In this document: positions 8,860 to 34,221 of the stretch, one piece after another | Numbering within the stretch: the stretch's first letter is position 1 | Layout: every line of letters begins with the position of its first letter | Origin: an uncultured Candidatus Sericytochromatia bacterium | GTDB lineage: Bacteria; Cyanobacteriota; Sericytochromatia; UBA7694 | Direction of reading: 5' to 3' | Length of the DNA stretch: 44,315 nucleotides | NCBI GenBank assembly: GCA_964598905.1 | Contig: CAZRFI010000004.1 | Coordinates: forward strand, 1-44,315 | The notes under the pieces: generated by a model | The model's database searches: none | The model's input: only the letters and a program-made list of their open reading frames with translations | Told to the model about the DNA's origin: nothing | Translations under genes and position numbers: made by a program

Positions 8860-9162
8860 ATCTTAATGTACCCAGTGACCTGGAATTGTAAACAAATGTT
8901 AAGGTGTTTGCGGTCGGATTGAGTATCGCCGCTATATTTAAATTTTGGCGCTTCGGTCTGAGACATAATAATGATCACACCCATCTGAATACAGCAAAGG
9001 GAATTTGCCTTGTTCTAGCTTTTTATTTAATACAGATGATTGTAGCAAAATCAGGGTGTTTGATTTTGAACCCACCGATTGATTTTAACTATCTGTATAA
9101 AACAAATATTTTATTGTCTAAAATATCTCTTTAAGAGAATGCCTTTTAAACTGGGCATTGCT

Positions 9163-14998: not shown

Positions 14999-15123
14999 AC
15001 GGTACAGAGTATTATCTGATAGGTTCAGAAATAAAAAAATGACCTCTATAACGACTTTTTGAAGATATGCGCTGGATTATGGCGCTTCTATCAGCTCAAC
15101 TAAACCGTCGCAACAGGTCTATT
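14961..15123. repeat. 17-bp perfect inverted repeat (AATAGACCTGTTGCGAC at 14961-14977 / GTCGCAACAGGTCTATT at 15107-15123) spanning a convergent gene junction
   Basis: Read directly. The left arm lies inside the last codons of the 420-aa CDS. The right arm lies just past the stop of the FGE-domain gene. Confidence 0.9.
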
Positions 15124-15127
15124 TTTA

Positions 15128-16234: not shown

Positions 16235-16304
16235 TGATTCATTTACTCCATAGGTGTCTCCAGTATGACTGGGTTTGAGAGCCCTGTAGCAACAGGGCTA
16301 AATA

Positions 16305-17936: not shown

Positions 17937-17969
17937 TTTAATTTACCATATCTTCTAATTTTAAAAACA

Positions 17970-19910
17970 CTATTGGGCTGTTGCTGAAATGAGGCCAGAT
18001 ACGATGCTATTACCAGCAGGGTCAAGCACGCTGTTGGCAATGTTTACATTGACGAGATCTCCTGGTCTAAATAGATCTGTTCCCGCTGTTGGTGGCTGTA
18101 GGAGCACCGTTTGATTAGTGGTATCATCGACGTCGAAAGTCGCACTGCCTCCGAGACTGCCCCAGGTTACTTGATCCAAGATGGGGGTGCCGAGACGGGT
18201 GACTGAGATGGTGTAATTATTGGCCACGCCACTGGTTGGGAGTGAGCCAATAGCTGCAGCGGCAGCTGAAATAACCCCGCCCATACCTCCCGCAATCACC
18301 GGCCCGAGTGTGTTATACCGCATGGGTTCACTGAATCGTACTTTAATTGCATCGCCGCTGGTATTTCCATTCTCAGCGGCATTGGCATTGATCAAGAGCA
18401 CCGATGGTGCTGTTTGGTCGGATTTAATGCTGAACATATAACTGGCTTCAAAATCCCCATCGGTGAGCTTAAATTTCTTTTCTGCAGTGGATCGGGACAC
18501 GCCCGATTTATCTTTAATTTCTCCCTCTAGAACCAAGCGATAGTCAGGCAGATAGGCCTCATAGCTATCAGAGGGCAATCTGCGTCCTTCTTTAAATGCG
18601 AAAGTTACTTCAGTGTCATCACTGTTCCAAGTGATATTAAAGGCCGATTTGTTCCAAATAGGAGTGCCCGCAACGATATTGATATCTCCGCTGCCAGAGA
18701 AAACCGTGGCACCGTTGGCCACCGTCAAAGCGCTGTTTTTAAAACTGTAAAGGGCAAAACTGTTTTGAACCGTTGCACGATCCATGGGCTCGGAGAATTT
18801 GAGTACAAAGCTGGTCTCTGGAGAAACCCCACTGCCATTGCGAGCTGGGGTGGCCATGGTCACTTCTGGTTTATCACTGAGAATAAGGGCTTCCCCAGAA
18901 AAATCAAGTTGGTTGATACTTGTGCTTTTCTGGGGGTTGGATTGCAAAACAGCGACACGATTGCGAGCCGTGTACCCAGTCTTTCTGGCTACAATCTCAA
19001 TTTGTATGTCGGTGGGTGCAATATTAAACTTATAATGCCCATCTGCTCCTGTTGTCATTTGAGCTGCGAACGGAACAGCAGAATTTAAAGATTTCGCGGA
19101 GATCTGTACACCACTTAAAGGCTGGCCTGTATCCCCATAAACAGTTCCACTAAAAGAGGTTGCCTGAATGGTATCGATTAAATCAATCGCCGGTGGAGTG
19201 GACAAGGCACTGTTAGGCACATCTGCAGGGACAGCCGCAACTCCAATCGTGGTATTTTCTATTTGTTCATTCGACAATTCCAGGAAAATAGAGGGGGCAT
19301 TTACTTCCTTATAGAATTGATTGTTGAGATAGACGGCATATTTGTCTGCATTGGGTACAGCATCCCAGGATGTTTCAAGTTTGGCTGTCTGGTCGAGGTT
19401 GTAGATTTGCTTGGTGTTGAACTGTTGTATATAGGTAATGTTGTAATTGATTGTGGTTGTGTTGTTGGTCTGATTGCCATTGACCACAGTCTGGTTGCCC
19501 TGCACATTATTGGTGCTATTGGTCTGGTTCCCTGTGACAATCGTGTTCGTTTGAGTACCACTGCCTGTGTTGACCGGCTGAATAATTGTGCCATCCCCGT
19601 TTTGGCTGTTATTGACCGTTGTGTTGGTCTGATTGCCTGACCCTGTGTTCGTATTGCTGGTTTGGTTGCCAGAACCACTGTTGGTATTGTTCGTCTGAGT
19701 ACCGGTATTGGTATTGCTGCTACCAGATCCATTGTTGTTAACTTGAGTGCCAGAACCCGTATTGCTTTGTTTGGTATTTGTCTGGTTATTACTATTGGTA
19801 TTTTGGGTGGTGGGGGCATTGACCTGCACGGCCTGTTTGGCCTCTTGCACGCTGCAGGCACTGAGCATAAGCAGTGAGAGAGCCAATGTGAGGGGGGATT
19901 GTTTGAGCAT
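17970..19910 (-). CDS. Surface lipoprotein: N/T/G/S/Q low-complexity region, carboxypeptidase-regulatory-like domain and SbsA-Ig/Big_5-like domains
   Basis: Lipobox LMLSAC. About 130 aa of NTGSGTQ/GNQTN-type low complexity. 'GTVYGDTGQPLSGVQISAKS...DGHYKFN', 'LKFSEPMDRATVQNSF', 'VRFSEPMRYNT'. Confidence 0.85.
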   Translation of the reverse strand: MLKQSPLTLALSLLMLSACSVQEAKQAVQVNAPTTQNTNSNNQTNTKQSNTGSGTQVNNNGSGSSNTNTGTQTNNTNSGSGNQTSNTNTGSGNQTNTTVNNSQNGDGTIIQPVNTGSGTQTNTIVTGNQTNSTNNVQGNQTVVNGNQTNNTTTINYNITYIQQFNTKQIYNLDQTAKLETSWDAVPNADKYAVYLNNQFYKEVNAPSIFLELSNEQIENTTIGVAAVPADVPNSALSTPPAIDLIDTIQATSFSGTVYGDTGQPLSGVQISAKSLNSAVPFAAQMTTGADGHYKFNIAPTDIQIEIVARKTGYTARNRVAVLQSNPQKSTSINQLDFSGEALILSDKPEVTMATPARNGSGVSPETSFVLKFSEPMDRATVQNSFALYSFKNSALTVANGATVFSGSGDINIVAGTPIWNKSAFNITWNSDDTEVTFAFKEGRRLPSDSYEAYLPDYRLVLEGEIKDKSGVSRSTAEKKFKLTDGDFEASYMFSIKSDQTAPSVLLINANAAENGNTSGDAIKVRFSEPMRYNTLGPVIAGGMGGVISAAAAAIGSLPTSGVANNYTISVTRLGTPILDQVTWGSLGGSATFDVDDTTNQTVLLQPPTAGTDLFRPGDLVNVNIANSVLDPAGNSIVSGLISATAQ

Positions 19911-20004
19911 GGAATTTCCTTTGTACTGAATTAAGACACCTATATAAAATAATAATTTTATAGTATTAAAAAGTCAACTTATAATTTATTGACTTCAATT
20001 ATGT

Positions 20005-20048
20005 TTATCGGCAATTGTGTTGACAATTGCCGATAATTTGAACATAAT
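20005..20048 (+). promoter_or_regulatory. Sigma70-type promoter (TTGACA, 17-nt spacer, CATAAT) overlapped by a perfect 14-bp-arm palindrome (putative operator)
   Basis: TTATCGGCAATTGT-gttg-ACAATTGCCGATAA spans 20005-20036. The -35 TTGACA is at 20020-20025, the spacer is 17 nt, and the -10 CATAAT is at 20043-20048. This is 45 nt upstream of the ATG at 20093. Confidence 0.55.
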
Positions 20049-20092
20049 AAAACTATCTGAAAGATCGTCATCAGAATCAACTGTGGTTAAAC

Positions 20093-20359
20093 ATGCATAA
20101 ACGATTTCAAGTGGTGAAGGCGCAGGAACATACATTTTTGTTTAAATATGACAAAGATGCTCCTGAGCTGCTTCATATTTATGTTAGGCACCTGACAGAA
20201 ATTTCAGATGCGTTGATTGTTTTTTTCAAGCACACAACAAATACCTGGAATGTTCAACATCAACGCTTTGAATCGTTTACCGAAACGCACGGCCTTTATT
20301 GGTTTTGGAAAGACGAGGGCAAGAAGATCGTGGTTGTTATTACTTGTTTTAACCTGTAA
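20093..20359 (+). CDS. BrnT-like (DUF497-like) type II toxin candidate
   Basis: 88 aa. The pattern ...HIYVRHLTEISDALIVF...QRFESFTET..GKKIVVVITCF resembles the DUF497 pattern KHGVsFeeA..vF...ERf...G...iriISA. Sits 11 nt upstream of a CopG/BrnA-like gene. Assignment made by eye only. Confidence 0.5.
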   Translation: MHKRFQVVKAQEHTFLFKYDKDAPELLHIYVRHLTEISDALIVFFKHTTNTWNVQHQRFESFTETHGLYWFWKDEGKKIVVVITCFNL

Positions 20360-20370
20360 AGGAGGGCATT

Positions 20371-20643
20371 GTGAACAAAGACATACCTATCGCCTATGAA
20401 ATTGTAGGAGATATAGAACTCCAAGACGCCGAAGCTGCGGATATCAACGCACGTATCAATCAAGCAGAAAAAGATGTTTCAGAGGCGCGTGTGCATTTCC
20501 GCTGGGGCTCCAAGCAGGTTGTCTTGATAAAGCAAATAGCCGCTAAAATGGGTATTCCCTATCAAACATATATCAAGCAAGCTTTAATGCGTCAAGCGAT
20601 GGAAGATTTAGAAAAGCTAAAGGTGCTTGAAAACCGTTTTTAG
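20371..20643 (+). CDS. BrnA/CopG-type antitoxin candidate
   Basis: 90 aa (track start 20371). C-terminal 'VHFRWGSKQVVLIKQIAAKMGIPYQTYIKQALMRQAME' matches the hallmark '...lRl....l..lK..A...GipYQtlI' of BrnT-associated CopG antitoxins. Confidence 0.65.
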   Translation: MNKDIPIAYEIVGDIELQDAEAADINARINQAEKDVSEARVHFRWGSKQVVLIKQIAAKMGIPYQTYIKQALMRQAMEDLEKLKVLENRF

Positions 20644-20654
20644 GTGTTCAAGTA

Positions 20655-22264
20655 GAACAGATAAAGCTTAGGGGCTAGAGTGCATATTTTCGGTATTGAT
20701 GGGCGGATGAATTTCGAAATTCATGCGAATTCAATCTTTCTTTTTCCTGTTCTTCGGCAATTTGTAGCTGCAAATAGGCCAAAGCCTGATTGAAGTCTGT
20801 TTTTCGCTTCTGACTTTGAAACTGAGCCATTTTGTTGCAAGCCAATTCAATCAAGGCAATTGTTTGAGATGCAGACTCTTTTTCGTCCGGGGAGACCCAC
20901 TCCAAAAGTATATTTTTCAGTTGGGGAAATGAACAGTGGCTGTATTGGGTAAAAACGGTTTCAAGCAGATGTAAGAGGGAATCACTTAAGGCGTTGAGCA
21001 TTGTGGGGGGCAAAGCACAGTCAAGTACCTGTTGAAAATTAAGCGGATCTCTAAAGGCATTCAAAATAAATTCTAATTCAGGTGGAATCGTTGTTTCAAA
21101 CACATCGGTATTTTCAGCTTGCGTTTGCTGAGTCGCCAGGAGTTTGGTTCCTGCAATTTTATCTTGCATCATGTCATTTTGACGCAGCATGGCGTTAAGC
21201 GGATCTGACGATACCTGTGACTTTAGATAGAGTGAAGCGCTGTCTCGTTTTTGTTTCCCTGTAAAGACATGGGCTTCTTGCCACATTTGTAGCCAGTTTT
21301 TCCCAGCCAGTCGTTTCAGCTCTTGGAGTAAGTTTTGAAAAGCTTCGGTCATCCTCTCTGCCAATTGCAAAGCTTGTTTTGCTCCCAATTTTTGAGTGTA
21401 GACATCTTTTAATTTATTTAAAAAAACATTTTTAGGGGCATCAGCCAAAAACATGAGCTTGCGCATATTTTCAGGTTCTAATGCAAAACTGGCAGCCTGT
21501 TCTTGTTCGGCTGTTTCGCAAAAAGCGTATAAATCTGCTTTTTTATTGGGTAGTGATTTTACAAACAGCTTTTTTTCTTGCTCTTTTTTTTCTGCCTTCA
21601 GAGTATCGGGAACAATCATCGTATTGCTCTCTTTGTTTTTAGCAATTTCCCAGGCAGCTTTGTCTTTTTGCCATTGCTCTCGCTTGAGCTGATAGCTGTG
21701 GCTCAATTCACCGGCGGGGTTGCCAAATACAATTTCGCGGTGAATAATGACACTTCGTTTGAGTAATTGAAGACTCTTGATTCCTTTAAAGGGAGCTAAA
21801 AAGTCTTGAATCACTTCTTCTTTGATTGGGACTGTAATGCTGGTTTTTTTCTGGGTTACAGGATCAATATCGGCATAGGCCACAATCGGTTTGGGTGTAT
21901 TGGTAAAAGCCAAGAGAATCAAGACCAGCGCTTTTTCAATCTCCATTCCGGTCAATTTGGGTGGACGCCCTTTGATATGTTTGGCAGCAATGGCACCCAT
22001 GACAAATTTGTAATTGGTATTACCCTCTATACCCAAATCTAGAAGCTTAAAATAGGCTGCAACAAGCTCTTCCTCGTGATGTATTTCTTTGTAGAGTTCA
22101 TTTAAAGAACGGTAAGCCAGTTCTTTTTTTCCTGAACGGATAGCAGCTACCAGTGTATTGACATAGTGTTGGTGTTGTTTTTTAAGTTCAATGGTCGGCC
22201 CTTTGCCTTCAAGCACCTCCATCAAGGTGAGAGAGAGTGCTTCGCGTGTGGTTGTTGTGAGTTC
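20655..22264. repeat. 1,610-bp perfect direct repeat, copy 2
   Basis: See copy 1. It includes 'aacagataaagcttag', which in copy 1 forms the last codons and stop of the 425-aa ORF but is non-coding here. Confidence 0.95.
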
Positions 22265-22279
22265 AGGAGGTGCGTCCAT
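20675..22279 (-). CDS. Hypothetical 534-aa protein (duplicated gene, copy 2)
   Basis: Identical to copy 1 apart from the first ~7 residues (MDAPPEL vs MSQLTAPEL). AGGAG lies 7 nt upstream of the ATG at 22279. The start overlaps the 3' end of the upstream 217-aa ORF by 17 nt. Confidence 0.7.
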   Translation of the reverse strand: MDAPPELTTTTREALSLTLMEVLEGKGPTIELKKQHQHYVNTLVAAIRSGKKELAYRSLNELYKEIHHEEELVAAYFKLLDLGIEGNTNYKFVMGAIAAKHIKGRPPKLTGMEIEKALVLILLAFTNTPKPIVAYADIDPVTQKKTSITVPIKEEVIQDFLAPFKGIKSLQLLKRSVIIHREIVFGNPAGELSHSYQLKREQWQKDKAAWEIAKNKESNTMIVPDTLKAEKKEQEKKLFVKSLPNKKADLYAFCETAEQEQAASFALEPENMRKLMFLADAPKNVFLNKLKDVYTQKLGAKQALQLAERMTEAFQNLLQELKRLAGKNWLQMWQEAHVFTGKQKRDSASLYLKSQVSSDPLNAMLRQNDMMQDKIAGTKLLATQQTQAENTDVFETTIPPELEFILNAFRDPLNFQQVLDCALPPTMLNALSDSLLHLLETVFTQYSHCSFPQLKNILLEWVSPDEKESASQTIALIELACNKMAQFQSQKRKTDFNQALAYLQLQIAEEQEKERLNSHEFRNSSAHQYRKYAL

Positions 22280-22916
22280 GTAATAACTCCTGCTGTAATC
22301 GCTGGATTTTTTGCATGGGTGGAAAATAGCGCCAATAGGGCTGTAGCATCATTTGGCGATCGGGGCTTAAGGTTTGGAAGGCAACCAGAAATGCAAAAGC
22401 AGGCAAATGAGTGGGCAAGGCATCTTCATAAGTGATGCGTTTGATATCCAACAATTCCCATATTTGGGGTGATTGATGATATTGAACGTACCAATAGAGT
22501 GTTTCATTGGCCTGACTTGAGCATTGAAAACACAGAAACTCTTTTGAAACGACTTTTGGATTCAATCTGACAGGCGATCTACAGGGACTGAATGTACAGA
22601 GAGAGGCTGGCACAGGAATACTTTGAAAGAGAATCTGGAAAAAGGTCTGCCAAAATGTTCCGATTCCAGCCTGGGGAGCTGCATCTGGCGGGCTAAGTGA
22701 GAAATGACTGAGATATTGGCTGAAGCAGTGTACCAGGTTTTTTTTCAAGGGCTGTGAGAGATGGGGATCTGCATGTAAGAGGGCAATCAGATCTTGAAAG
22801 CCGATGGGACCATTTTCTTGGTCAATTCTTGCGATTTGTCTAAACAGGTGATTGAGTGGTTGACTGGCTTCTGCAAATTGCTGCCACTGGGGATCTTGAT
22901 AGAGTTTGATTGACAT
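22263..22916 (-). CDS. Hypothetical 217-aa protein
   Basis: ORF in an operon-like arrangement: 3-nt gap to the upstream gene and 17-nt overlap with the downstream gene. Cys pairs (CTFSPC...CFQC) might form a zinc ribbon. No family recognised. Confidence 0.55.
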   Translation of the reverse strand: MSIKLYQDPQWQQFAEASQPLNHLFRQIARIDQENGPIGFQDLIALLHADPHLSQPLKKNLVHCFSQYLSHFSLSPPDAAPQAGIGTFWQTFFQILFQSIPVPASLCTFSPCRSPVRLNPKVVSKEFLCFQCSSQANETLYWYVQYHQSPQIWELLDIKRITYEDALPTHLPAFAFLVAFQTLSPDRQMMLQPYWRYFPPMQKIQRLQQELLHGRTS

Positions 22917-22919
22917 ATT

Positions 22920-23885
22920 TCAATTGAATTGAAACGTGTGATATAAATCAAAACTGTTACCAAAGTCAGGGTAAAATTCGTATAATTCTATTTTAACCCG
23001 AACTGACCCAGATAAATTGGGATCGGTTTTTTTATAAAATATCGGTTGATACAATTGAATTGTTTTCGTGGATTCAGCACTAATTATACCTACGTTATAG
23101 CCCTCATTACTAATATTGATTTCAGCTGTTCCATTTGCTGTTTCGAGGATCTTTATTGATTTGATTCGCAGGTTGTTTGTGTCAGACTTTCCGGTGTTTT
23201 GGAAAACAAAGTCTGCATAGCCACTCTCGACGACTTTGAGCAATTCAATTTTATTGTCAATGGGATCAACGGCAAGTGTGTGCTCGAATTTCCATTCATT
23301 TCCAAAATCGTCAAAAACAGTAAAGACCAATGGAATGCTGGAAAGGCTTGGATTTAGGGCTATTTTTACTTCAAACGTATTGTCAAAAAAACGACGTTCT
23401 GTGCTTTCGAGTGTATTACTGACTTCTTGGGCCAAGATCGGATCTTTATTAGCGAGATTTTTGAGAATTTGTAGATCCGGGCTTAAAGAACTTAAGCGAA
23501 TTTTTAATTTGTTGGAAGGGGAATTGCCCATATTGACTAAAATAGGCTGTATAGAGATTGTCTCGCCTTGATTGACCGTTTGATCACCATTGCCGCCGTT
23601 ACGTCCTCTGGCTTGAAGTGTTTTGATGCTTCTCAGTTCCAGTTTGACTGAACCATCTGCAGCAGGTGGTGCAGAAATAGTGGGAGGCTGTGTTTGTGTG
23701 AGACGAGCCGAAGATGTTGGCTGTGGAGAGGGGCTGGTTTTTACCTGTGCAGGAGATATCGAGGCTCTGGCCTGAGAGACGGGGATTTTATTGACAATGG
23801 CCACATCTTGTAAAATGCCTTGAAGAGCCGAACAACCATTGCATAAGAGGGCTAAGGGAAGAACTTTGAGCAACTTAAAAAACAT
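22920..23885 (-). CDS. Lipoprotein with CARDB/Ig-like module(s)
   Basis: Signal plus lipobox (LALLCNGC); AGGAG upstream of the ATG. 'GNGDQTVNQGETISIQPILVNMGNSPSN' is paralogous to 'GNGDKRINRGETIEFAPVFQNTGKSPTN' in the next gene. The CARDB-like assignment is by eye. Confidence 0.75.
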   Translation of the reverse strand: MFFKLLKVLPLALLCNGCSALQGILQDVAIVNKIPVSQARASISPAQVKTSPSPQPTSSARLTQTQPPTISAPPAADGSVKLELRSIKTLQARGRNGGNGDQTVNQGETISIQPILVNMGNSPSNKLKIRLSSLSPDLQILKNLANKDPILAQEVSNTLESTERRFFDNTFEVKIALNPSLSSIPLVFTVFDDFGNEWKFEHTLAVDPIDNKIELLKVVESGYADFVFQNTGKSDTNNLRIKSIKILETANGTAEINISNEGYNVGIISAESTKTIQLYQPIFYKKTDPNLSGSVRVKIELYEFYPDFGNSFDLYHTFQFN

Positions 23886-23903
23886 CTGTATGACTCCTCT
23901 TTT

Positions 23904-24479
23904 TTAAGATTGAACTGTGAGCAGATACGGAAAGTTGTATGTTTGGTCCTTATCGGTGTCAATCAATTTGAATAAAACTTCAATTTGTGTCCCTGCTTGA
24001 ATTTGCGAATCCAAACGAATTTGTGGTGAATTTCGGCTGATAGGCACTTCAATCACTTCATCAGCAGGAATGGGATTGACTTTGACACCTGTTTGAAGTG
24101 GATTAATGGGGGTCACTTGGCTGTGAAAACAGGTGATACGTAGGTACATGGTATTTGTGGGAGATTTGCCTGTATTTTGAAAAACAGGCGCAAATTCTAT
24201 AGTTTCACCCCTGTTGATGCGTTTATCTCCGTTTCCAATGGTGTCACGCAAGCTGACTTTGTGGAGCAAAAGTGAATTGTTTTCATTTGCCGCTGTATTT
24301 AAGCTGGGGGGGGCAGCTTGGACCAACGGTGCTGCCGTTAGACTATTGGCGCTGTGAGTGTCAGTGCCAACCTCATTGATAATCCGGACATTTTGAACAA
24401 CCTTTTGATCCGAACACCCTGTTTGGGTTAAAAGCATCAATAAGCCCGCCGCTTGAATTCGCCCGTTGATTCTATGCAT
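23904..24479 (-). CDS. Lipoprotein with a CARDB/Ig-like module
   Basis: The track ORF extends to 24533, but the internal ATG at 24479 gives MHRINGRIQAAGLLMLLTQTGC (signal plus lipobox) and avoids overlap with the upstream mini-ORF. Confidence 0.7.
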   Translation of the reverse strand: MHRINGRIQAAGLLMLLTQTGCSDQKVVQNVRIINEVGTDTHSANSLTAAPLVQAAPPSLNTAANENNSLLLHKVSLRDTIGNGDKRINRGETIEFAPVFQNTGKSPTNTMYLRITCFHSQVTPINPLQTGVKVNPIPADEVIEVPISRNSPQIRLDSQIQAGTQIEVLFKLIDTDKDQTYNFPYLLTVQS

Positions 24480-24495
24480 GTTGAATGTCCCCGTT

Positions 24496-24633
24496 TTATT
24501 TTTTACCTTCTCCCTCGTTGATGGTTGTTCCATCTTTGAGCTGCACCACTTGGTTGACGGTCTGTTTGTTTTCGCAGCTGGTGAATAAGGGAACGGAGAA
24601 AGAACACAAGAGCAAAATCAACAATGATTTCAT
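24496..24633 (-). CDS. 45-aa mini-lipoprotein candidate (not in the ORF track)
   Basis: Hand translation gives MKSLLILLLCSFSVPLFTSCENKQTVNQVVQLKDGTTINEGEGKK*. GGAG lies 7 nt upstream of the ATG. Lipobox is FTSC. It fits the 16-19-nt gene spacing of this operon. Confidence 0.45.
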   Translation of the reverse strand: MKSLLILLLCSFSVPLFTSCENKQTVNQVVQLKDGTTINEGEGKK

Positions 24634-24652
24634 CGAAAGACTCCTAATTAAT

Positions 24653-26673
24653 TTATGAGGCATTGGCTGAGGCGGTTGCTTGCGAGCTGTTTACTAAATT
24701 GCCTGCAGGATCCATAATTGTGCTAGCAACGGTGACCTGCACAGTGTCTCCCGGTTTATAAATATCAGTACCAAAGGGCGGTAAGAGCAAAACCGTTTTA
24801 TGAGTCAAATCAGTTGTGTCGTAAACAGCACTTCCATTTAATCCACCAGGCAAATTACACCAAGACGTATTCATGATTTCTGTCCCTGCACGGATTACTT
24901 TGATCTGGTAATTACAGGCCGCTGCAGAACTTGTCGCCGCGCTGCCACCCCCTGGATAACCGGCTGGGGCTTTGGCTGCTGAACCAACGGTGTTTTCCAT
25001 ACCTCCAGCAATAGTTAGGTCTCGGGTATAATAAATCATTCGTTCGCTAAAACTCACCCGAATGGCATCTCCATTTTGCCCCCCATTTTCAGCCGTTTCC
25101 ACCTGTAATGAAGTCAGTTGTGGCGCAAGGGTATCGGGACTGACTGAGAATTTGATGCTTTCTTGGAATTTGATGCTTTCTTGATAATCTGTACCTGAAA
25201 GCTGAAAATGCAGACCGGAACGGGCAATGCCACTTTTATCTTTGATAGTACGATCCCCTCCCGCTTTAAAGACAAGCTGGTATTCAGGGGCACGGCTGGC
25301 ATCTTTGTCTGTGGGCAAGTATCTCTCTTCTTTGGGAGCAAAAGTGACCTCGGTGTCGCTCATATTCCAAAAAATATTGTAGGCAGATTTATCCCAGATT
25401 TGGGTACCACTAAAATCTGCGAGGTTCATGAGGCCTGTCAAGGTAAAATTGCTGGCTGAGGCGAGATCAACGCTCAGTTTGCGGTTACTAAAATTGCGAA
25501 TAGAGAAGGTGTTCTCGACAGACTCTGTATCCATTGGTTCAGAGAATTTGAGTACAAATGCTGTGCGTGGATCTATTTGTCCATTTGCAGATGGAAAAAC
25601 GGCAATCACCTCTGGTTGGTCGTAGAGGGCCAAAGGATGATCTACAGAACCATTGCCAAAGTCAAATTTATTGATATTTGCTAAATTTTGCGAGTTGTGT
25701 TCAATGAGTTTGAACACTTCACGGGTGGCAAAGCCATCTCTGGATGCGCGGATAGACACCAAAAGTCCTGTTATTGGGACATTGTTGATCGCATAAAAAC
25801 CATCTGTCCCTGTTATAGCTGTGGTTTGAAAAGTTTTTTCAGGATTTTGCGAGTTTACTTGAATATTAACGCCACTCAAAGGGGTTCCATTGCGATCAAA
25901 GACCTGACCTCTTAAAGTTGTAAGAAGAAAACTCTCTGTCAATGTCTTTTCCTCGCTTGTACTGGGTGCAGGCGGGAATTTGTGCTGTTGCTTGCCACTA
26001 CTGCAATTTTTTGATTCAAGCTTGTAACAGGAATGGTGACTGTGGTAGAGGTTGTTTCCTGAATTTCCTGATTATTAGAAAAGATGGTATATTTGGTCGC
26101 TCCCGACACAGCGGGCCAATTGAGCACGGATTGCGTCACTTTTTGTTCGAAGATAGTTTGATTAAAAGACGTTGTGCCATCGGATTGAGGGGCATTGGGG
26201 TTATTGTCACCAGGAATGGTTTTAGGGATATTGTTGGTTTGATTCCCATTCACCACTGCCTGATTACCTGCTACGGTGTTGTTATTTTGCGTACCCGTAA
26301 CAACATTGGTGGTCTGAATCCCACTGCCTGTGTTCACAGGCTGAACTATAGTGCCATCACCTGTCTGGGTATTGGTCACAGTGGTATTGGTTTGGGTACC
26401 TGAGCCAGTATTGGTGTTAACCGTGCTGGTTTGATCGCCTGAACCTGAATTAACGGTCTGCTCCCCAGAGCCCGTATTGGTATTGCTGCTACCTGAACCG
26501 GTGTTATTGACCTGGGTGCCAGATCCTGTATTTGATTGATTGCTCTGGTTGTTGCTGTTTTGGGTGGTGGGAGCGTTGACTTGGACAGCCTGTTTGGATT
26601 CATCCAAATTTGCAGCCATCTCTGTTTCATTGGCGTTTATCAGTGCCTGCAGTTTGGATGAATGTTTAAACAT
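24653..26673 (-). pseudogene. Disrupted paralog of the 646-aa surface lipoprotein: split into ORFs 25939..26673 and 24653..25942, with its signal-peptide segment inverted
   Basis: The 244-aa ORF aligns to the N-terminal half of 17970..19910 (ESKQAVQVNAPTTQN...). The 429-aa ORF aligns to the C-terminal half (CarboxypepD_reg plus SbsA_Ig). The two frames overlap and are both open over 25942-26072. The second ORF has no ATG, only a TTG. The N-terminus lacks a hydrophobic signal in the present orientation. Confidence 0.55.
26598..26663. repeat. Perfect 11-bp inverted repeats (ATTCATCCAAA at 26598-26608 / TTTGGATGAAT at 26653-26663) flanking a 44-bp invertible-looking segment
   Basis: Read directly. 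The 44-bp core on the + strand encodes FAAISVSLAFISAC, while the gene is on the - strand. Confidence 0.9.
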
Positions 26674-26849
26674 GAATAACTTCCTTTGAAAAAAATCTGA
26701 CTTGTTCGGGCAGGAACCGTTTTGCTAACAGGATGATTTTCTAAAATGTTTTATATAAATTATATATTTTAGATTATCAAAAAGCAAATTTATACTACAT
26801 TCGCTGACGAGAACGATGCGACATCTGAAAATAGTAAAATATGACGCGA

Positions 26850-26996
26850 TTAGCGGTCGTTTAAATCTTGCTGGGGCGGCGAGAAGCGTTTGTCAAAATT
26901 GGCCATATTTGAAGGTCGAAAGGCCTGAAGCCGCATCCAAAACAGCCAGCCCCCACCCAGCACCAGGGCCAGGGAGGCCAAAGCGAGCAAGAACAT
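26850..26996 (-). CDS. 48-aa single-TM peptide candidate (not in the ORF track)
   Basis: Hand translation gives MFLLALASLALVLGGGWLFWMRLQAFRPSNMANFDKRFSPPQQDLNDR*. It starts 15 nt after the Uma2 stop. No clear RBS. Speculative. Confidence 0.3.
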   Translation of the reverse strand: MFLLALASLALVLGGGWLFWMRLQAFRPSNMANFDKRFSPPQQDLNDR

Positions 26997-27011
26997 CAGC
27001 GCGTGCAAGGC

Positions 27012-27632
27012 TTAATCCCCAGCGGCTTCGGCAAAAATGGTGGCAAAATCAATCACCAGGGCCTGCTTGAATACAGTGACACTGACTTGGCTGTCTGAGG
27101 TATAGGTCTGGGGCCGCTGGTATTTTCCCTCTGCATTTAAAACAAAGACCATGATGGTTTCTTCATGGGGATGCACCACCCAATATTCTTTGACCCCAAA
27201 GCGCTCATAAAGATTGAGTTTTTTGACATAATCCATTGCAGCACTTCCGGGAGAGACCACTTCAATAATCCAATCAGGACTGCCTTGGCAACCCCGCCCG
27301 GTTAGTTTGAGGGGATCACAGACCACCAGAATATCGGGTTGCACAACCGTGGTTTCTTCTGCTTGCTCAGACAATTTCAGGCAGACATCCAAAGGGGCTG
27401 TGTAGACCTGACATGTTTGCCCGCGTAAGAAGGCATAAATTTGAAAAAAGAGCGCACCCTGGACAGCTTGATGAAGCCTTGATGGGGCTGGACTCCTCGC
27501 TTGAATGCCACCTTCTTTGGCGTAGGCTGTCCCTTCGATAATTTCCCAGCGTTCGCTGTCGGGCCAGCTCAAATAATCTTGATAGGTATAACACGCGTTG
27601 CTGCGCGTGGCAGGCAGCCCCATGGCGTTCAC
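27012..27632 (-). CDS. Uma2-family (DUF820) putative restriction-endonuclease-like protein
   Basis: '[20 protein letters not shown]', '[10 protein letters not shown]', '[12 protein letters not shown]...[22 protein letters not shown]' are the typical Uma2 layout and motifs. Confidence 0.85.
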
Positions 27633-27754
27633 CCCTTTTGTGTTTCTCTCCTTTTATCATCTATCAGCCATTTCTGCCTGTCAATGCCTCCACTCTGAGC
27701 TTCGCTGTGCATTTGTTACAATGGAGTCTAAGAAACAACAGAGCAAGACTTTTT

Positions 27755-27995: not shown

Positions 27996-28511
27996 ATGCG
28001 CTTTTTCACAACTGTTTTGGCCTGTGGACTGTCTCTGTGTCTGGCTGTTGGCCCCGTCTGGGCCGCAGAAAAAGATCCCTTTGCCCTGATGAAAAGTGAG
28101 CAATTGGGAACCCTGAAACTGGGTACGCTCCTGTCCATGCTCAAATTGCCAGCCGGCTGTGGTGAGGCCCAAAAAGATGCAGAAACCTTCTGGGGGGCCG
28201 ATGGCGCTTTGCATCAAGCTTGGAAATACAAAGCCTGTGGGCTCGAATTGGGTCTGGTGCGTGAAAAAAACACAGATCCCCAGCGCGTTTTCTCGCTCAG
28301 GCTGGTTGCCCCCAGCCGCCTCAAAACCTTGCGGGGAATTGGCATCGGTAGCACGGCCCAGGCTGTACTCAAGGCCTATGCCTCAGACTACAATCCTGCA
28401 GAGAGCCAAAAGGGCCTGACGATTGTGGCCGGAACCGTTTATGGCGGATTGATCTTTATGCTCAAACAGGGCAAGGTCAGTGAGATCTTTTGGGGGGCTG
28501 CGGCCGAGTGA
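27996..28511 (+). CDS. Secreted protein of unknown function
   Basis: ATG at 27996 with AGGAG at 27983-27987. Signal peptide MRFFTTVLACGLSLCLAVGPVWA/AE. No family recognised. Confidence 0.7.
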   Translation: MRFFTTVLACGLSLCLAVGPVWAAEKDPFALMKSEQLGTLKLGTLLSMLKLPAGCGEAQKDAETFWGADGALHQAWKYKACGLELGLVREKNTDPQRVFSLRLVAPSRLKTLRGIGIGSTAQAVLKAYASDYNPAESQKGLTIVAGTVYGGLIFMLKQGKVSEIFWGAAAE

Positions 28512-29305
28512 ACGCCTTGAGTTTGGTAGATATTGGCTTGAATCTGACCCACCGGCGCTTTGATGCCGATCGCGAAGCTGTGCTGGAGCGGGCCTTGGCT
28601 GCCGGTGTGCAACAAATGGTGCTGGCCGGCACCTGTGCTCGTAGCAGCAGTACTGCTGCTGATTACGCAGCTTTGCATTCGGGGGTGCTGTTTAGCACCG
28701 CAGGCATTCATCCCCACGATGCTGAGCGGGCCACTCCCCAAGATTTACAGACCCTGCGCAGCTTGGCCATGCGGCCCGAAGTGGTGGCGATTGGGGAGTG
28801 TGGCTTGGACTTTAACCGCGATTTTTCGCCGCGTGATGTGCAGCAGCAGGTCTTTGCGGAACAGGTCAAGCTGGCCTGCGAATTGCAAATGCCGCTGTTT
28901 TTACACGAGCGCGAAGCCCAGGCGACTTTGCTGGCGGTGCTCGACAGCTTTGGGGCGGCGCAATTGCCCCCGGTCGTGGTGCATTGTTTTACCGGCAGCG
29001 AGACCGAGTTGCAGGTCTATTTGCGGCGGGGGTATTTTATTGGCATTACGGGCTGGATCTGTGATGAGCGCAGGGGCCAGCATTTGCTCGAGATTGTCAG
29101 GCAGATTCCGCTTTCGCGCCTGATGCTCGAAACCGACGCGCCTTTTCTCACGCCCCGCGATCTGCGTCCCAAACCCCCAAGCGGGCGCAATGAACCTGCC
29201 TATTTGGCGCATATTTTGCAGACCGTGGCGCGGGCCTATGGACGCAGTGCCGAAGACGTGGCTGCCGCGACCACGGCCACCGCAACAGCCTTTTTTAAGT
29301 TATAA
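28508..29305 (+). CDS. tatD: TatD-family metal-dependent hydrolase/DNase
   Basis: 'LVDIGLNLTHRRF', 'STAGIHPHDA', 'AIGECGLDF', 'LFLHEREA', 'VVHCFTG', 'GITGWICDERRG', 'LMLETDAPFLTPRDLRPKP..GRNEP' are close to E. coli TatD motifs. The GTG at 28508 overlaps the upstream stop (GTGA). Confidence 0.9.
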   Translation: MNALSLVDIGLNLTHRRFDADREAVLERALAAGVQQMVLAGTCARSSSTAADYAALHSGVLFSTAGIHPHDAERATPQDLQTLRSLAMRPEVVAIGECGLDFNRDFSPRDVQQQVFAEQVKLACELQMPLFLHEREAQATLLAVLDSFGAAQLPPVVVHCFTGSETELQVYLRRGYFIGITGWICDERRGQHLLEIVRQIPLSRLMLETDAPFLTPRDLRPKPPSGRNEPAYLAHILQTVARAYGRSAEDVAAATTATATAFFKL

Positions 29306-30205: not shown

Positions 30206-30742
30206 TTAGCTCAAGGGGTAGCGATAGAGATGAAACCCTTTTTCATAATAGCCATTTAAAAATCCCTGATTGAAATTTAGGATATCTTTTGATTGGGTCA
30301 AGATACATTGAAAACCGAATTTTTTATATGCTTTAACTGCCCAATGTGCTTGGGGATGAGCCAGTAAACAGAGGCCTTTTTTTTTCCTGCGCAGTGCCTC
30401 TTCGCGGGCAAACTCCATGAAGCGATGGCCGTATCTTTTTCCCACTTGGCTTGTATCCAAGTAGAGGTAGCCGATGTAGGCATAAGGACCAAAATACTGG
30501 AGAGAAAGGGTGCCCACCGCTTGTTTTTTTTCATTAAAACCAAGGTAGAAGTCTCGGCACTGGTAGTTGCGTTCTTGCCAGTCTGTATCCACAAAATGTT
30601 CATTGAGATCTTCTGGGTGCACAAAAGAGGCATACCAATCAGCGGAGGTGCGAATCAACCTCGCTACTTGTTCCATCTCTTGGCGTTGGGCCTTTTGGAT
30701 ATGTAAAGGGTGATTTACTTGCTTGGTAATGGTCTGTGACAT
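30206..30742 (-). CDS. GNAT-family N-acetyltransferase
   Basis: 'IGYLYLDTSQVGKRYGHRFMEFAREEA' (motif A, Q/R-x-x-G-x-G/A-like) and 'AVKAYKKFGF' (motif B). Confidence 0.85.
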   Translation of the reverse strand: MSQTITKQVNHPLHIQKAQRQEMEQVARLIRTSADWYASFVHPEDLNEHFVDTDWQERNYQCRDFYLGFNEKKQAVGTLSLQYFGPYAYIGYLYLDTSQVGKRYGHRFMEFAREEALRRKKKGLCLLAHPQAHWAVKAYKKFGFQCILTQSKDILNFNQGFLNGYYEKGFHLYRYPLS

Positions 30743-30934: not shown

Positions 30935-32089
30935 TTAATAAAGTAATTGAGCGATGATTTCTGAAAAAAGATGAATCCCCATTTCGAGGAGCTCTTCCGG
31001 GAAATCGTAATCTGCACTGTGCAGAGTCAATTGTTCACCTGCTCCCAACCCAAATAAAGCACCTGGTGCAGATTGACTAAACCAACCAAAATCCTCTGAC
31101 CAGCGAAAGGGTTCGGGAGGTGCTTGTGCAATCCAACCTCTGGCTTGGGCACCGGCTCTGACCAGTTCTGTGGCCATCGGGTGATTGTGGGTTGCGGGAA
31201 AATAATCGTGCCAGCTGGTGGCACAATCTAATTGGTGTTTTTGAGCAATTTGGGTAACTTCTTCCAAAGCCATTGTGCGCAAGTCTTCTAGGGTCTGATC
31301 CTGATAGCTGCGCAAAGTGGCCATGATTGTCGCTTCACCAGGAGTAATGCCAAAAGAGGCCTCTCCCAAGCGAGCGGAGACAATCGTCAGCAGGGCAAAC
31401 TGTGCTTGGTTTTTAAATCTGTGATTGAGGGTTTCCAATTTGAGGATCATTTCAGCCATTGCCTGAGCAGGGCTTTTTCCCCGTTCTGGATAAGCTGCAT
31501 GTGATGTTGCTCCCTTTAACTCAATTTTAAGTCCGACCGAAGCAGCGGCAAAAACGTCCTCTTTGATAATGACTGCTCCGAGTGGGAACTTGGGCAGATT
31601 GTGAAGGGCAAAACAATAATCGTAGTTTAAGGCTTGAAAATGGGGGTCTTTCAAAACGGCTTGGGCCCCTTCACCGGTTTCTTCAGCGGGTTGAAAGAGC
31701 AAAATAACCCGCCCAAGCGGCGGGGGATTTTGTTTTAAAACAGGAGCCAAACCTGCCAGAATCGCCATATGTCCGTCATGGCCACATTTATGGGCAAGCC
31801 CCGCGTGGGTCGAGCGGTAGAGCAGATCGTTACTTTCTTCAATCGGCAAACCGTCCATATCTGCTCTCAGCAAAAGCGATGGGCCTATTTTTCCTGAGTC
31901 GAAGATTGCAGCCAATCCGTGTCCACCCAGTCCTGTCAGTAGTTGTTGAGGCCCGTACTGGTGCAGAAAGCTTTCGAGTATGCGGGCTGTCACTTCTTCT
32001 TGACCTGCTAGTTCGGGCTGCATGTGCAAGATGCGTCTCAAGTTGATAATTTCATCCAGATGGGGAAGTTTCTCTGAGCTCGATAACAT
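30935..32089 (-). CDS. M20-family amidohydrolase (M20D aminoacylase/hippurate-hydrolase type)
   Basis: 'LRRILHMQPELAGQEEVT', 'LLLRADMDGLPI', 'HKCGHDGHMA', 'ILLFQPAEETGEGA', 'LHNLP'. The track ORF (to 32374) runs far into the upstream gene. ATGs at 32113 and 32089 both lie just after the upstream stop at 32122; which is used is uncertain. Confidence 0.85.
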   Translation of the reverse strand: MLSSSEKLPHLDEIINLRRILHMQPELAGQEEVTARILESFLHQYGPQQLLTGLGGHGLAAIFDSGKIGPSLLLRADMDGLPIEESNDLLYRSTHAGLAHKCGHDGHMAILAGLAPVLKQNPPPLGRVILLFQPAEETGEGAQAVLKDPHFQALNYDYCFALHNLPKFPLGAVIIKEDVFAAASVGLKIELKGATSHAAYPERGKSPAQAMAEMILKLETLNHRFKNQAQFALLTIVSARLGEASFGITPGEATIMATLRSYQDQTLEDLRTMALEEVTQIAQKHQLDCATSWHDYFPATHNHPMATELVRAGAQARGWIAQAPPEPFRWSEDFGWFSQSAPGALFGLGAGEQLTLHSADYDFPEELLEMGIHLFSEIIAQLLY

Positions 32090-32121
32090 TTTTTCTCTCT
32101 TTTGCTGATTCATGAGCGATT

Positions 32122-33273
32122 TTAAACAAAGCGGTCGGTAAAGCGAATGAGCTTGCCCAGGGCACTCTGGGGCTTGGTTTGCATCTCGTGAATCAGCCCT
32201 AGCCAGCCACTTTTTTGCAATTTGGCGGCCATTTTGCGGTAGCCTTCGCCATAGATCGGGTTGGGGTCTTGGGCCAGACGCTGATGCAAGACCCCTGCCA
32301 GCGGCGTGCCATCGTTTTGGTAGACCAGGGCCGTGGCCAGATTGCAAAAACCTTCGATCTCTCTTTCGCCCCAAACATCGTTGCGTTTTTTTTCGTTGAG
32401 CCAGACATGCAAGAGTTCATGGGCCAAGACGCCCATAAACTGCAGGCGGGGCAGGCCATAGAGGATAAAAATACTGTGTTCTTGCAATTTGCCTTGGCCG
32501 AGCACTTCGCGTATCAAAGTTTTGGTAAAACCGTGGCTATTGGCGTTGCGCCCGACCCCCAGGCGCTGCTGCAGGGTACGCTGATCGGCCAAACTGACGG
32601 CGATGTACTGCGGGATATAGTCAAAACCCACGGCCTGTAATTGTTGCAGCACACTTTGGCGGGCATGTTCGATCTGGGCTGGGGTGGTAATTTCGGTCAT
32701 TTGGCAAATGCCGCAGACAATCCGGCCATCGCCGTATTTGACACCCCCTTGGGAGGTCTTTTCGGAGATCAGCCGGGCGCAGACATGGCATTGCAAGGTG
32801 GGCAGACCGCCGTGGTGGGGGTGCAATTTGTGCCCCCAGAGATCCTGGAGAAATTGTCCCACAATCGGTTGGGCACAGCCATCACAGCGGGGGGCTCTGT
32901 GTTCGGCATAACAGGCCGTGTGATAGACGTGCCCTTCGGGGTCGCGGGTATATTGGCCCGTTAACTCACCCCCACAGACTTCACACTGTTCTTGGTAATG
33001 GGCTTGGTAACAGGCCTCGTGAAGTTTTTTTCCGTCCAGGGTCAGCCACGTGGCGCCGAGGGGTTCTTGGCAATGGGCACAATTGAGCTTAAAGCGCTGC
33101 TGGCTGCAATGGGGGTGGTAGAGTTTGTTGTCTTTGAGGCGGTATTCTTCGCCCAAGGGGGCTTGGCAATGATTGCAGCAAAAACAAGCGGGATGAAACA
33201 AATGCGCTTCAGCGCGCACATATTGTTTGCCCAGCGGGGCCTGGCAGCGATTGCAGCGTTTAACCGGGGGCAC
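32122..33273 (-). CDS. LIM-type zinc-finger repeats fused to a DA1-like (HExxH) peptidase domain
   Basis: GTG start with AGAGGAAAG upstream. Several C-x2-C-x17-H-x2-C-x2-C-x2-C-x17-H-x2-C units (CNRC...HPAC..CNHC...HPHC and others). C-terminal 'AHELLHVWL' parallels the plant DA1 'HEMMHAWL' motif. Confidence 0.8.
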   Translation of the reverse strand: MPPVKRCNRCQAPLGKQYVRAEAHLFHPACFCCNHCQAPLGEEYRLKDNKLYHPHCSQQRFKLNCAHCQEPLGATWLTLDGKKLHEACYQAHYQEQCEVCGGELTGQYTRDPEGHVYHTACYAEHRAPRCDGCAQPIVGQFLQDLWGHKLHPHHGGLPTLQCHVCARLISEKTSQGGVKYGDGRIVCGICQMTEITTPAQIEHARQSVLQQLQAVGFDYIPQYIAVSLADQRTLQQRLGVGRNANSHGFTKTLIREVLGQGKLQEHSIFILYGLPRLQFMGVLAHELLHVWLNEKKRNDVWGEREIEGFCNLATALVYQNDGTPLAGVLHQRLAQDPNPIYGEGYRKMAAKLQKSGWLGLIHEMQTKPQSALGKLIRFTDRFV

Positions 33274-34217: not shown

Positions 34218-34221
34218 CAGG

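What the first reader, a model, noticed from the sequence alone, without database searches (positions are those of the whole stretch)
26598..26663. Lipoprotein signal-peptide segment is inverted between perfect 11-bp inverted repeats, a possible export ON/OFF switch
What the sequence shows:
- The 244-aa ORF (25939..26673, minus strand) is a clear paralog of the 646-aa lipoprotein gene. Compare ...ESKQAVQVNAPTTQN with ...EAKQAVQVNAPTTQN.
- Its N-terminus, MFKHSSKLQALINANETEMAANLDES, has no hydrophobic signal.
- The 44 bp at 26609-26652 are flanked by ATTCATCCAAA (26598-26608) and its exact reverse complement TTTGGATGAAT (26653-26663).
- Read on the opposite (+) strand, those 44 bp encode FAAISVSLAFISAC.

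Consequence of flipping the segment:
- The frame is preserved and the gene would read MFKHSSKFAAISVSLAFISACSLDESKQAVQVN.
- That is a canonical signal peptide plus lipobox (ISAC). It aligns with the paralog's MLKQSPLTLALSLLMLSACSVQEAKQAVQVN.
- At the DNA level, the flipped segment restores the 13-nt match CTGCAGGCACTGA with the paralog.
- Both orientations are stop-free. For 15 codons this is not significant on its own.

Interpretation (inference): either a short-inverted-repeat-mediated invertible switch that toggles export and lipidation of a surface protein, or a one-off inversion in a decaying paralog. No recombinase gene is recognisable in the window.
Basis: partly seen in the sequence, partly recalled or inferred. 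Interest (0 to 1): 0.75.

Follow-up and report, generated by a model that had tools for sequence, protein, structure and literature searches.

The report
Inverted signal peptide in broken lipoprotein gene
A 44-base piece of DNA that should encode the export signal of a surface lipoprotein sits backwards between two 11-base inverted repeats, but the same gene also carries a frameshift, so this looks like a one-off replication accident in a dying gene copy, not a working on/off switch.

Summary
Perfect 11-bp inverted repeats (26598-26608 and 26653-26663) bracket 44 bp. Flipped in place, these 44 bp turn MFKHSSKLQALINANETEMAANLDES into MFKHSSKFAAISVSLAFISAC|SLDES. That is a rule-conforming lipoprotein signal peptide, and its Cys falls in the same alignment column as in every homologue.

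The "switch" reading is not supported:
- The 244-aa ORF is only the front of a 673-aa gene. A 1-nt deletion near 25975 splits it from the 429-aa ORF at 24653-25942.
- The gene also has a perfect 18-bp tandem duplication and a weakened promoter match.
- The syntenic orthologue (697 aa) and the 646-aa paralogue are intact and have no repeats around their signal peptides.
- Only the inverted form appears in the three assemblies that carry this allele.
- No other copy of the repeat and no recombinase lie in the 44 kb.
- 11-bp inverted repeats are at chance frequency in this window.

Amino-acid changes cluster in the right arm. This fits a single template-switch event (inverted-repeat spacer inversion with arm homogenisation), a known mutation class. 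dN/dS of 0.12 says inactivation is recent.

Verdict: a real inversion, most likely a fixed pseudogenising lesion in a redundant paralogue within a strain-variable island. Reads were not available, so low-level flipping cannot be excluded.

The parts
26598..26608 (.). Inverted-repeat arm ATTCATCCAAA. On the gene (-) strand this is the promoter-distal arm, codons L-D-E-S just after the lipobox position.
   Evidence: Three of its four codons differ in amino acid from the paralogue, while the 17 flanking codons have none.
26609..26652 (+). 44-bp spacer. On the + strand, opposite to the gene, it reads FAAISVSLAFISAC, the h-region plus lipobox of the lipoprotein signal peptide. On the gene strand it reads LQALINANETEMAAN.
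   Evidence: A 13-nt identity to the paralogue's lipobox region is restored by flipping. AISVSL is shared with the signal peptide of homologue P0006.
26653..26663 (.). Inverted-repeat arm TTTGGATGAAT. On the gene strand this is ATTCATCCAAA, codons H-S-S-K of the signal-peptide n-region.
   Evidence: Together with a further 5-bp inner pairing it forms a DNA hairpin of -17.9 kcal/mol, z = -4.7.
25939..26673 (-). 244-aa ORF. It is the N-terminal fragment of the broken lipoprotein gene: disrupted signal peptide, N/T/G/S/Q-rich linker and first domain.
25970..25980 (-). Site of a 1-nt deletion relative to the orthologue (AAAT-TCCCGCC). It shifts the frame and creates the TGA at 25941-25939.
   Evidence: Adding one C restores a continuous 673-aa protein that aligns end to end with P0002.
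24653..25942 (-). 429-aa ORF. It is the out-of-frame C-terminal remainder of the same gene, with CarboxypepD_reg and Big_5 domains.
25148..25183 (-). Perfect 18-bp tandem duplication (QESIKF QESIKF), absent from the orthologue.
26760..26788 (-). Stretch homologous to the TTGACT-17-TATTAT promoter-like site of the intact paralogue and orthologue. Here it reads TTTGCT-17-ATATAA and no longer passes the consensus scan.
   Evidence: This is a consensus match only.

Best explanation
The gene at 24653-26673 (-) is a recently inactivated copy of a surface-lipoprotein family. One of its lesions is a true in-place inversion of the 44 bp that encode the hydrophobic core and lipobox of its signal peptide.

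The inversion most likely arose once, without a recombinase. During replication the nascent strand switched template at a short hairpin-forming inverted repeat and switched back. This inverted the spacer and, in the same event, made the arms perfectly complementary. This is the known "IR spacer inversion with arm homogenisation", also called hairpin minute inversion.

Consequence: the product has no h-region and no lipobox Cys, so it cannot be exported by Sec or lipidated by Lgt/Lsp. A separate 1-nt deletion cuts the protein after about 232 in-frame residues. The gene is therefore dead in either orientation. The intact 646-aa paralogue 6 kb away makes it redundant.

Shown: the inversion, the frameshift, the intact orthologue and paralogue, and fixation of the inverted form in all available assemblies. 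Inferred: the template-switch mechanism, the single event, and the order of the lesions.
For: Inversion is real and the flipped form is ancestral:
- The flipped peptide aligns column for column with the signal peptides of all homologues and passes the lipoprotein rule.
- It is very rare under simulation.

The gene is broken independently of the inversion:
- A 1-nt deletion relative to the orthologue.
- An 18-bp perfect duplication.
- The promoter-like site that scores 10 of 12 in the paralogue and orthologue fails here.

Comparison with relatives:
- The syntenic orthologue P0002 (L003, GCA_051715345.1) is an uninterrupted 697 aa with a signal peptide.
- No inverted repeat of 8 bp or more flanks the signal peptide in the orthologue, two paralogues or P0006.

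No sign of a dedicated system:
- The arm sequence occurs nowhere else in the window.
- Pattern scans of 185,579 genomes and the JGI metagenomes gave only unrelated hits.
- No recombinase domain was found in the 20 larger ORFs scanned against Pfam; the two giant ORFs (2901 and 2382 aa), several ORFs between 28490 and 33273 and all small ORFs were not scanned here.

Orientation data:
- The OFF form and the frameshift are identical in the NCBI contig, ENA ERZ27284381 and Logan SRR16110281.
- The ON protein is not in the collection.

Support for the mechanism:
- The hairpin folds at -17.9 kcal/mol, z = -4.7.
- Amino-acid changes cluster in the right arm, 3 of 4 codons against 0 of 17 flanking codons (hypergeometric p about 0.003, post hoc). 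This is what arm homogenisation predicts.
- Precedent in the literature: PMC8604942 and chloroplast small inversions of 4-50 bp (PMC12371153).

Timing and setting:
- dN/dS of 0.12 against the orthologue, like the neighbouring genes (0.06-0.29), shows the gene was constrained until recently.
- The gene lies in a strain-variable, low-GC island that other strains lack entirely.
Against: - All assemblies with this allele come from one strain and perhaps one sample. "Fixed" therefore means consensus only, and minor ON subpopulations would be invisible.
- No direct ancestor with the ON orientation was found, so polarity rests on paralogues and an orthologue whose 5' end is mosaic.
- The positions after the Cys vary across the wider family, so the substitution cluster in the arm could be ordinary divergence.
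- A 44-bp spacer is far longer than the 2-5 bp spacer inversions documented in yeast coding DNA.
- Perfect arms, frame preservation, no stop in either orientation and a surface-lipoprotein target are also what a real intragenic inverton would show. A validated 57-bp recoding inverton exists in Bacteroides.
Confidence: 0.72

Rival explanations
1. Programmed or high-frequency reversible switch. The 66-bp element is a recoding intragenic inverton. An invertase encoded elsewhere flips it, or it flips at high rate without an enzyme. This toggles the protein between an exported, lipidated form and a cytoplasmic, inactive form.
For: - Perfect arms, preserved frame and no stop in either orientation.
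- The target is a surface lipoprotein of a multi-paralogue family in a variable island, typical phase-variation territory.
- Short recoding intragenic invertons (57 bp) have been PCR-validated in Bacteroides thetaiotaomicron.
- Invertases can act in trans, so the absence of one from 44 kb is weak evidence.
Against: - A fixed frameshift makes the ON state non-functional.
- Only OFF is seen.
- The repeats are not conserved in the orthologue or paralogues.
- There is no second site in the window or in public collections.
- No recombinase was found.
- The repeat length is at chance level.
- Staying stop-free after flipping is expected 59% of the time.
Confidence: 0.12
2. Selected inactivation. After the frameshift, a truncated lipoprotein (lipid anchor plus low-complexity linker) was harmful, or the surface protein was a target of phage, predator or host. 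Loss of export through the inversion was therefore favoured and not neutral.
For: - Several independent recent lesions sit in one gene, while dN/dS shows past constraint.
- The island is lost completely in other strains.
Against: There is no direct evidence. Several lesions are equally expected from neutral decay of a redundant copy. The order of the lesions is unknown.
Confidence: 0.08
3. Assembly or library artefact. The inversion does not exist in the organism's DNA.
For: Inverted repeats can generate chimeric, strand-switched reads during library preparation (own knowledge).
Against: - Three assemblies made with different assemblers agree base for base across the site: the NCBI contig, MEGAHIT k139 and Logan.
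- 11-bp arms are shorter than any k-mer used, so an assembler cannot flip the segment.
- An artefact would have to dominate the consensus.
Confidence: 0.03

Closest known systems
Inverted-repeat spacer inversion by DNA-polymerase template switching (quasipalindrome mutagenesis; Abraham & Hazkani-Covo 2021, PMC8604942), and hairpin-mediated "minute inversions" of chloroplast DNA (Kelchner & Wendel 1996, cited in PMC12371153)
   Same: [quoted passage not shown] The spacer is the exact reverse complement of the homologous sequence. The region can form a hairpin. No recombinase is needed. The event can homogenise the arms at the same time. The 44-bp spacer lies within the 4-50 bp range of chloroplast small inversions.
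   Different: The spacer is about ten times longer than those seen in yeast coding DNA (2-5 bp). It lies in a bacterial coding sequence and removes a whole functional module (h-region plus lipobox), not just one or two residues. Chloroplast cases are mostly non-coding.
Recoding intragenic invertons (Chanin et al., bioRxiv 10.1101/2023.03.11.532203; for example the 57-bp inverton in BT0375)
   Same: The repeat-flanked segment lies wholly inside a coding sequence, is of similar size, and recodes without a stop when flipped.
   Different: The defining evidence, both orientations in one population, is lacking here. The host gene is frameshifted. The repeats are not conserved, and no invertase repertoire is known for this organism.
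Lipoprotein phase variation by site-specific inversion in Mollicutes (Ureaplasma MBA/UU172, PMC3047005; Mycoplasma agalactiae Vpma/Xer1, PMC2268961)
   Same: DNA inversion with a breakpoint inside the 5' coding region decides whether a surface protein is joined to a signal peptide and lipid anchor.
   Different: Those systems swap one expression site among several oppositely oriented genes over hundreds to thousands of bp. They use conserved 21-nt or longer sites and Xer-like recombinases. Here a single gene's own signal peptide is flipped, the paralogues are co-oriented, and no shared site or recombinase is present.

Membership tests
Bacterial lipoprotein (Lgt/Lsp substrate) | N-terminal signal peptide with K/R in the n-region, an uncharged h-region and a lipobox [LVI..][AST..][GAS]C, with the Cys at position 15-35 | tested here: not met
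   The present (OFF) sequence has no Cys in its first 35 residues and a mean hydropathy of 0.21 over the segment. The flipped (ON) sequence passes with Cys21 and a hydropathy of 2.14. The homologues have the signal peptide.
IR spacer inversion / hairpin minute inversion (template switching) | Perfect or near-perfect short inverted-repeat arms directly flanking the changed segment | tested here: met
   11/11 complementary arms with a 44-bp spacer.
IR spacer inversion / hairpin minute inversion (template switching) | The spacer equals the reverse complement of the ancestral or homologous sequence | tested here: met
   The flipped spacer restores the family signal peptide, the Cys column, a 13-nt identity with the paralogue and AISVSL as in P0006. 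The direct ancestor was not available.
IR spacer inversion / hairpin minute inversion (template switching) | Single-strand hairpin potential above background | tested here: met
   DNA fold of -17.9 kcal/mol against -8.05 +/- 2.09 for shuffles. The region was chosen because of the repeat, so this is partly circular.
IR spacer inversion / hairpin minute inversion (template switching) | Arose during replication without a recombinase | not testable with these tools
   There is only indirect support: no recombinase in the window and a substitution cluster in one arm.
Intragenic inverton (phase-variable, recoding) | Repeat-flanked segment entirely within a coding sequence, recoding without a stop on inversion | tested here: met
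Intragenic inverton (phase-variable, recoding) | Both orientations present in reads of one population | not testable with these tools
   No read access. At consensus level only OFF is seen in three assemblies, and the exact ON protein is absent from the collection.
Intragenic inverton (phase-variable, recoding) | Host gene otherwise functional, so that switching has a phenotype | tested here: not met
   A 1-nt deletion frameshift is present in all assemblies.
Intragenic inverton (phase-variable, recoding) | Repeats conserved at orthologous or paralogous loci, or recurring at other loci | tested here: not met
Mollicute-type lipoprotein inversion systems (vsa/vpma/MBA) | Several oppositely oriented family genes sharing a recombination site, with an adjacent Xer-like recombinase | tested here: not met
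   All family genes in the window are on the - strand. There is no shared site and no recombinase.
Pseudogene | Disrupted reading frame relative to intact orthologues | tested here: met

The most novel reading that the evidence does not exclude
The 66-bp element is a live intragenic inverton that turns Sec export and lipidation of a surface protein on and off by flipping only the h-region and lipobox of its signal peptide. It would flip either through a trans-acting invertase or through unusually frequent hairpin-driven template switching. The frameshift would then be a recent lesion in this one strain. This would be a new way to phase-vary a protein: changing where it goes in the cell, not whether it is made.
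Probability: 0.1. Interest if true: 0.7.

Novelty: new member of a known kind. Interest (0 to 1): 0.3.

Why it matters
As it stands, this is an unusually clean natural example of a long (44-bp) inverted-repeat spacer inversion inside a bacterial coding sequence. One mutational event deletes the function of a whole signal peptide while leaving the ORF open.

This matters in practice. Gene callers and annotation pipelines will report an intact-looking 244-aa "hypothetical protein". Inverton finders that rely on repeats plus frame preservation will flag such sites as candidate switches. The case shows that these two criteria are not enough.

If reads were to show both orientations, it would instead be the first switch known to act by inverting a signal peptide.

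Tried and rejected
1. ON orientation in public data.
- Exact look-up of the flipped 244-aa protein: not in the collection.
- Word-seeded search with the ON N-terminal 60 aa: no candidates. This result is uninformative, because the tool also failed to recover the window's own protein, which shares 38 identical residues with the query.
- Scans of genome contigs and metagenome contigs for ATTCATCCAAA-N30-60-TTTGGATGAAT gave 11 and 18 hits. All are unrelated sequences (hairpins or chance), and none is homologous to this locus.

2. Other strains.
- Look-ups of the 429-aa and 209-aa ORFs failed because the start codon or start call differs.
- The 321-aa neighbour occurs only in the same samples.
- The VF530-like neighbour revealed nine loci from other samples, but these strains lack the whole island. 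Homology ends at 26917, so they say nothing about orientation.

3. Family survey for other members without a signal peptide. The few candidates look like truncated or mis-started gene calls.

4. Organism identity. No paper mentions the accessions. The window has no rRNA, tRNA or Rfam hit. The taxon remains unknown.

5. Programmed frameshifting at the ORF junction was rejected. Homology to the orthologue switches frame 13 codons before the stop, at a 1-nt gap.

6. Chance resemblance without any inversion was rejected by the simulation and the alignments.

Full report
**1. What is there**

On the minus strand the ORF 26673-25939 begins ATG TTT AAA CAT TCA TCC AAA | CTG CAG GCA CTG ATA AAC GCC AAT GAA ACA GAG ATG GCT GCA AA | T TTG GAT GAA TCC AAA CAG.
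- The arms ATTCATCCAAA (gene-strand copy at 26663-26653) and TTTGGATGAAT (26608-26598) are perfect reverse complements, separated by 44 bp.
- Flipping the 44 bp in place keeps the frame. It changes MFKHSSK-LQALINANETEMAAN-LDESKQAVQVN into MFKHSSK-FAAISVSLAFISACS-LDESKQAVQVN.
- The flipped form passes a PROSITE-PS51257-style lipoprotein rule: K3 and K7, an uncharged h-region, F-I-S-A-C, Cys21. The present form has no Cys in its first 35 residues.

**2. Is it more than chance?**

- The repeat alone: the window holds four perfect 11-bp inverted repeats with spacers of 40-134 bp. A rough expectation is 44 kb x 150 / 4^11, about 1.6.
- Frame preservation without a stop: 59% of 13,089 codon-aligned 44-nt segments in the window's ORFs stay stop-free when flipped.

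The combination is significant.
- Only 5 of 13,086 other segments give a hydrophobic peptide (Kyte-Doolittle mean of at least 1.8) ending in a lipobox-like motif.
- Here this happens at the N-terminus of a protein whose eight database homologues and two in-window paralogues all start with a lipoprotein signal peptide.
- In a joint alignment the flipped form places its Cys in the family's Cys column.
- It shares AISVSL with the signal peptide of the distant homologue P0006.
- It regains a 13-nt identity, TCAGTGCCTGCAG, with the 646-aa paralogue.

The inversion is therefore real, and the flipped orientation is the ancestral one.

**3. The gene is broken in other ways**

- Frameshift. The 244-aa ORF is not a gene. 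In another frame the sequence continues into the 429-aa ORF 25942-24653, which carries the CarboxypepD_reg and Big_5 domains of the family. DNA alignment with the orthologue shows a single 1-nt gap at AAAT-TCCCGCC, about 25975. Adding one C gives a 673-aa protein that aligns over 97% of its length with the best hit P0002 (697 aa, 70% identity). Homology changes frame 13 codons before the stop, so this is a mutational indel and not programmed frameshifting.
- Duplication. A perfect 18-bp tandem duplication (QESIKF QESIKF, 25148-25183) is absent from P0002.
- Promoter. The promoter-like site TTGACT-17-TATTAT upstream of the intact paralogue and of the orthologue is TTTGCT-17-ATATAA at the homologous place here. 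It no longer passes the scan. This is consensus evidence only.

**4. Relatives**

- P0002 is encoded at the syntenic position (TatD, 171-aa and VF530 genes on one side; 44/194/321-aa genes on the other) in GCA_051715345.1 and in two Logan assemblies. It is uninterrupted and has the signal peptide MPKQSPFALALSLCLLSAC.
- Its 5' 468 nt, its promoter and an upstream toxin-antitoxin pair match the window's 646-aa paralogue (86%) and not the broken gene, so the family is mosaic.
- None of the other 5' ends has an inverted repeat of 8 bp or more around the signal peptide. This covers the orthologue, the 646-aa and 543-aa paralogues and P0006.
- An exhaustive profile search finds 184 representatives at E <= 1e-30. 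Most have a recognisable N-terminal signal peptide or lipobox. The exceptions look like fragments or mis-called starts.

**5. Orientation data**

- The exact 244-aa (OFF, frameshifted) protein occurs in the NCBI contig (the window), in ENA ERZ27284381 (MEGAHIT k139 contig, 1 mismatch in 14.7 kb) and in Logan SRR16110281 (100% identical).
- Its 90% cluster has one member, and the exact ON sequence is absent from about 15 billion proteins.
- The neighbouring 321-aa protein is found only in the same samples.
- Other strains, found through the conserved VF530-like gene in eight further samples, lack the whole lipoprotein island. Homology stops at 26917.
- The consensus state is therefore OFF wherever this allele exists, but that is one strain. 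Minor subpopulations cannot be seen without reads.

**6. No sign of a dedicated inversion system**

- The arm sequence has no other exact copy in the window.
- The pair pattern with a 30-60 nt gap finds only unrelated sequences in 185,579 reference genomes and in the JGI metagenomes.
- Pfam finds no serine or tyrosine recombinase or transposase among the 20 larger ORFs scanned. The two giant ORFs (2901 and 2382 aa), the ORFs at 28490-29305, 30206-30742, 30935-32374 and 32122-33273, and all small ORFs were not scanned here; stored Pfam hits for four of those genes on the near-identical contig L001 show TatD, acetyltransferase, peptidase M20 and LIM/DA1-like domains only.

**7. Mechanism (inference)**

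- The region folds as single-stranded DNA into an 11-bp stem extended by a 5-bp inner pairing (TGCAG/CTGCA). The free energy is -17.9 kcal/mol against -8.05 +/- 2.09 for shuffles.
- Template switching of a polymerase at short inverted repeats is known to invert the spacer and to homogenise the arms in one event. [quoted passage not shown]
- Hairpin-associated small inversions of 4-50 bp are pervasive in chloroplast DNA (PMC12371153).
- One detail here fits arm homogenisation. Compared with the paralogue, the four codons of the arm after the Cys (LDES against VQEA) carry 5 nucleotide and 3 amino-acid changes. The 17 flanking codons carry only synonymous changes (hypergeometric p about 0.003). 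This test is post hoc, and the positions vary in more distant relatives.
- On this reading the perfect repeat is at least partly a product of the accident, not an evolved recombination site.

**8. Timing and context**

- dN/dS between the repaired gene and P0002 is 0.12, within the range of its neighbours (0.06-0.29). The gene was under purifying selection for most of its history, and the lesions are recent.
- The gene lies in a 42.9% GC island between 53-58% GC flanks.
- The island holds an intact close paralogue and a 1613-bp direct repeat that is 99.94% identical.
- Other strains lack the island.
- Redundancy and accessory status make decay of one copy unsurprising.

**9. Comparison with known systems**

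The closest known kind is the inverted-repeat spacer inversion, or hairpin minute inversion. All its testable defining features are met.

It resembles a recoding intragenic inverton. A 57-bp example has been validated in Bacteroides (bioRxiv 10.1101/2023.03.11.532203). However:
- the defining observation, both orientations in one population, could not be tested;
- two supporting expectations, a functional host gene and conserved or recurrent repeats, were tested and not met.

It is functionally reminiscent of Mollicute lipoprotein inversion systems (PMC3047005; PMC2268961). It lacks their architecture: several oppositely oriented genes, shared sites and a Xer-type recombinase.

**10. Verdict**

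- The switch interpretation is not supported but is not excluded (about 0.1).
- The best explanation is a one-off, recombinase-independent inversion that, together with a frameshift, has recently pseudogenised a redundant lipoprotein paralogue (about 0.7).
- Interest is modest. It is a clean example of a known mutation class, and a cautionary case for inverton prediction from sequence alone.

Noticed in passing
window 10337-11949 and 20652-22264: A 1613-bp direct repeat, 99.94% identical, covering the 536-aa and 534-aa genes of unknown function. It brackets 8.7 kb that holds the intact 646-aa and 543-aa lipoprotein paralogues and an FGE-sulfatase-domain lipoprotein. The relative L003 has a single copy, so this is a recent segmental duplication or insertion.
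   Followed up: partly
window about 8940-26916; boundary at 26917: A low-GC island (42.9% against 53-58% in the flanks) that carries all the lipoprotein genes. In eight other samples, strains with an identical VF530-like gene go straight from Uma2/VF530 to a 550-567-aa gene and a giant gene, with no island. Homology ends exactly at 26917. The Uma2 gene itself (27011-27677) is a presence/absence polymorphism.
   Followed up: partly
L003 9282-10468 against window 20632-19443: The orthologue's toxin-antitoxin pair, promoter and first 468 nt match the window's 646-aa paralogue (86%), while the rest of that gene matches the broken gene (77%). This indicates gene conversion or unequal recombination among family members.
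   Followed up: partly
L003 13935-16938 against window 22263-22916: The relative has a 548-aa CsgG/LpoB-like gene and a 378-aa gene between the 321-aa and 534-aa genes. The window has only a 217-aa ORF there, so part of the presumed operon is deleted.
   Followed up: no
window 32122-33273 (-): A bacterial protein with LIM zinc-finger and DA1-like peptidase domains, an architecture typical of plants and other eukaryotes. It is 97% conserved in the relative.
   Followed up: no
window 119-8824 (-) and 34198-41346 (+): Giant ORFs of 2901 and 2382 aa; the 2382-aa gene has no stored Pfam hit on the near-identical contig L001, and neither ORF was scanned against Pfam here. Both are conserved next to the island in related strains.
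   Followed up: no
window 26594-26689 (+): The inversion creates a 31-codon + strand mini-ORF (TTG start) reading MDSSKFAAISVSLAFISACSLDECLNMNNFL, which is a lipoprotein-like signal peptide on the wrong strand. There is no ribosome-binding site and no evidence that it is used (read from the sequence).
   Followed up: no
window 20093-20643 (+): A small gene pair (88 and 90 aa; the second is a weak CopG-antitoxin match) sits upstream of the 646-aa paralogue. It is conserved upstream of the orthologue in L003.
   Followed up: no
window 42905-43077: A 24-nt tandem repeat encoding PEPEPVY(A/V) in a double-zinc-ribbon protein.
   Followed up: no
L040 5785-7299: An IS605 OrfB / Cas12f-like TnpB gene is inserted next to TatD in some related strains but not in the window.
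   Followed up: no
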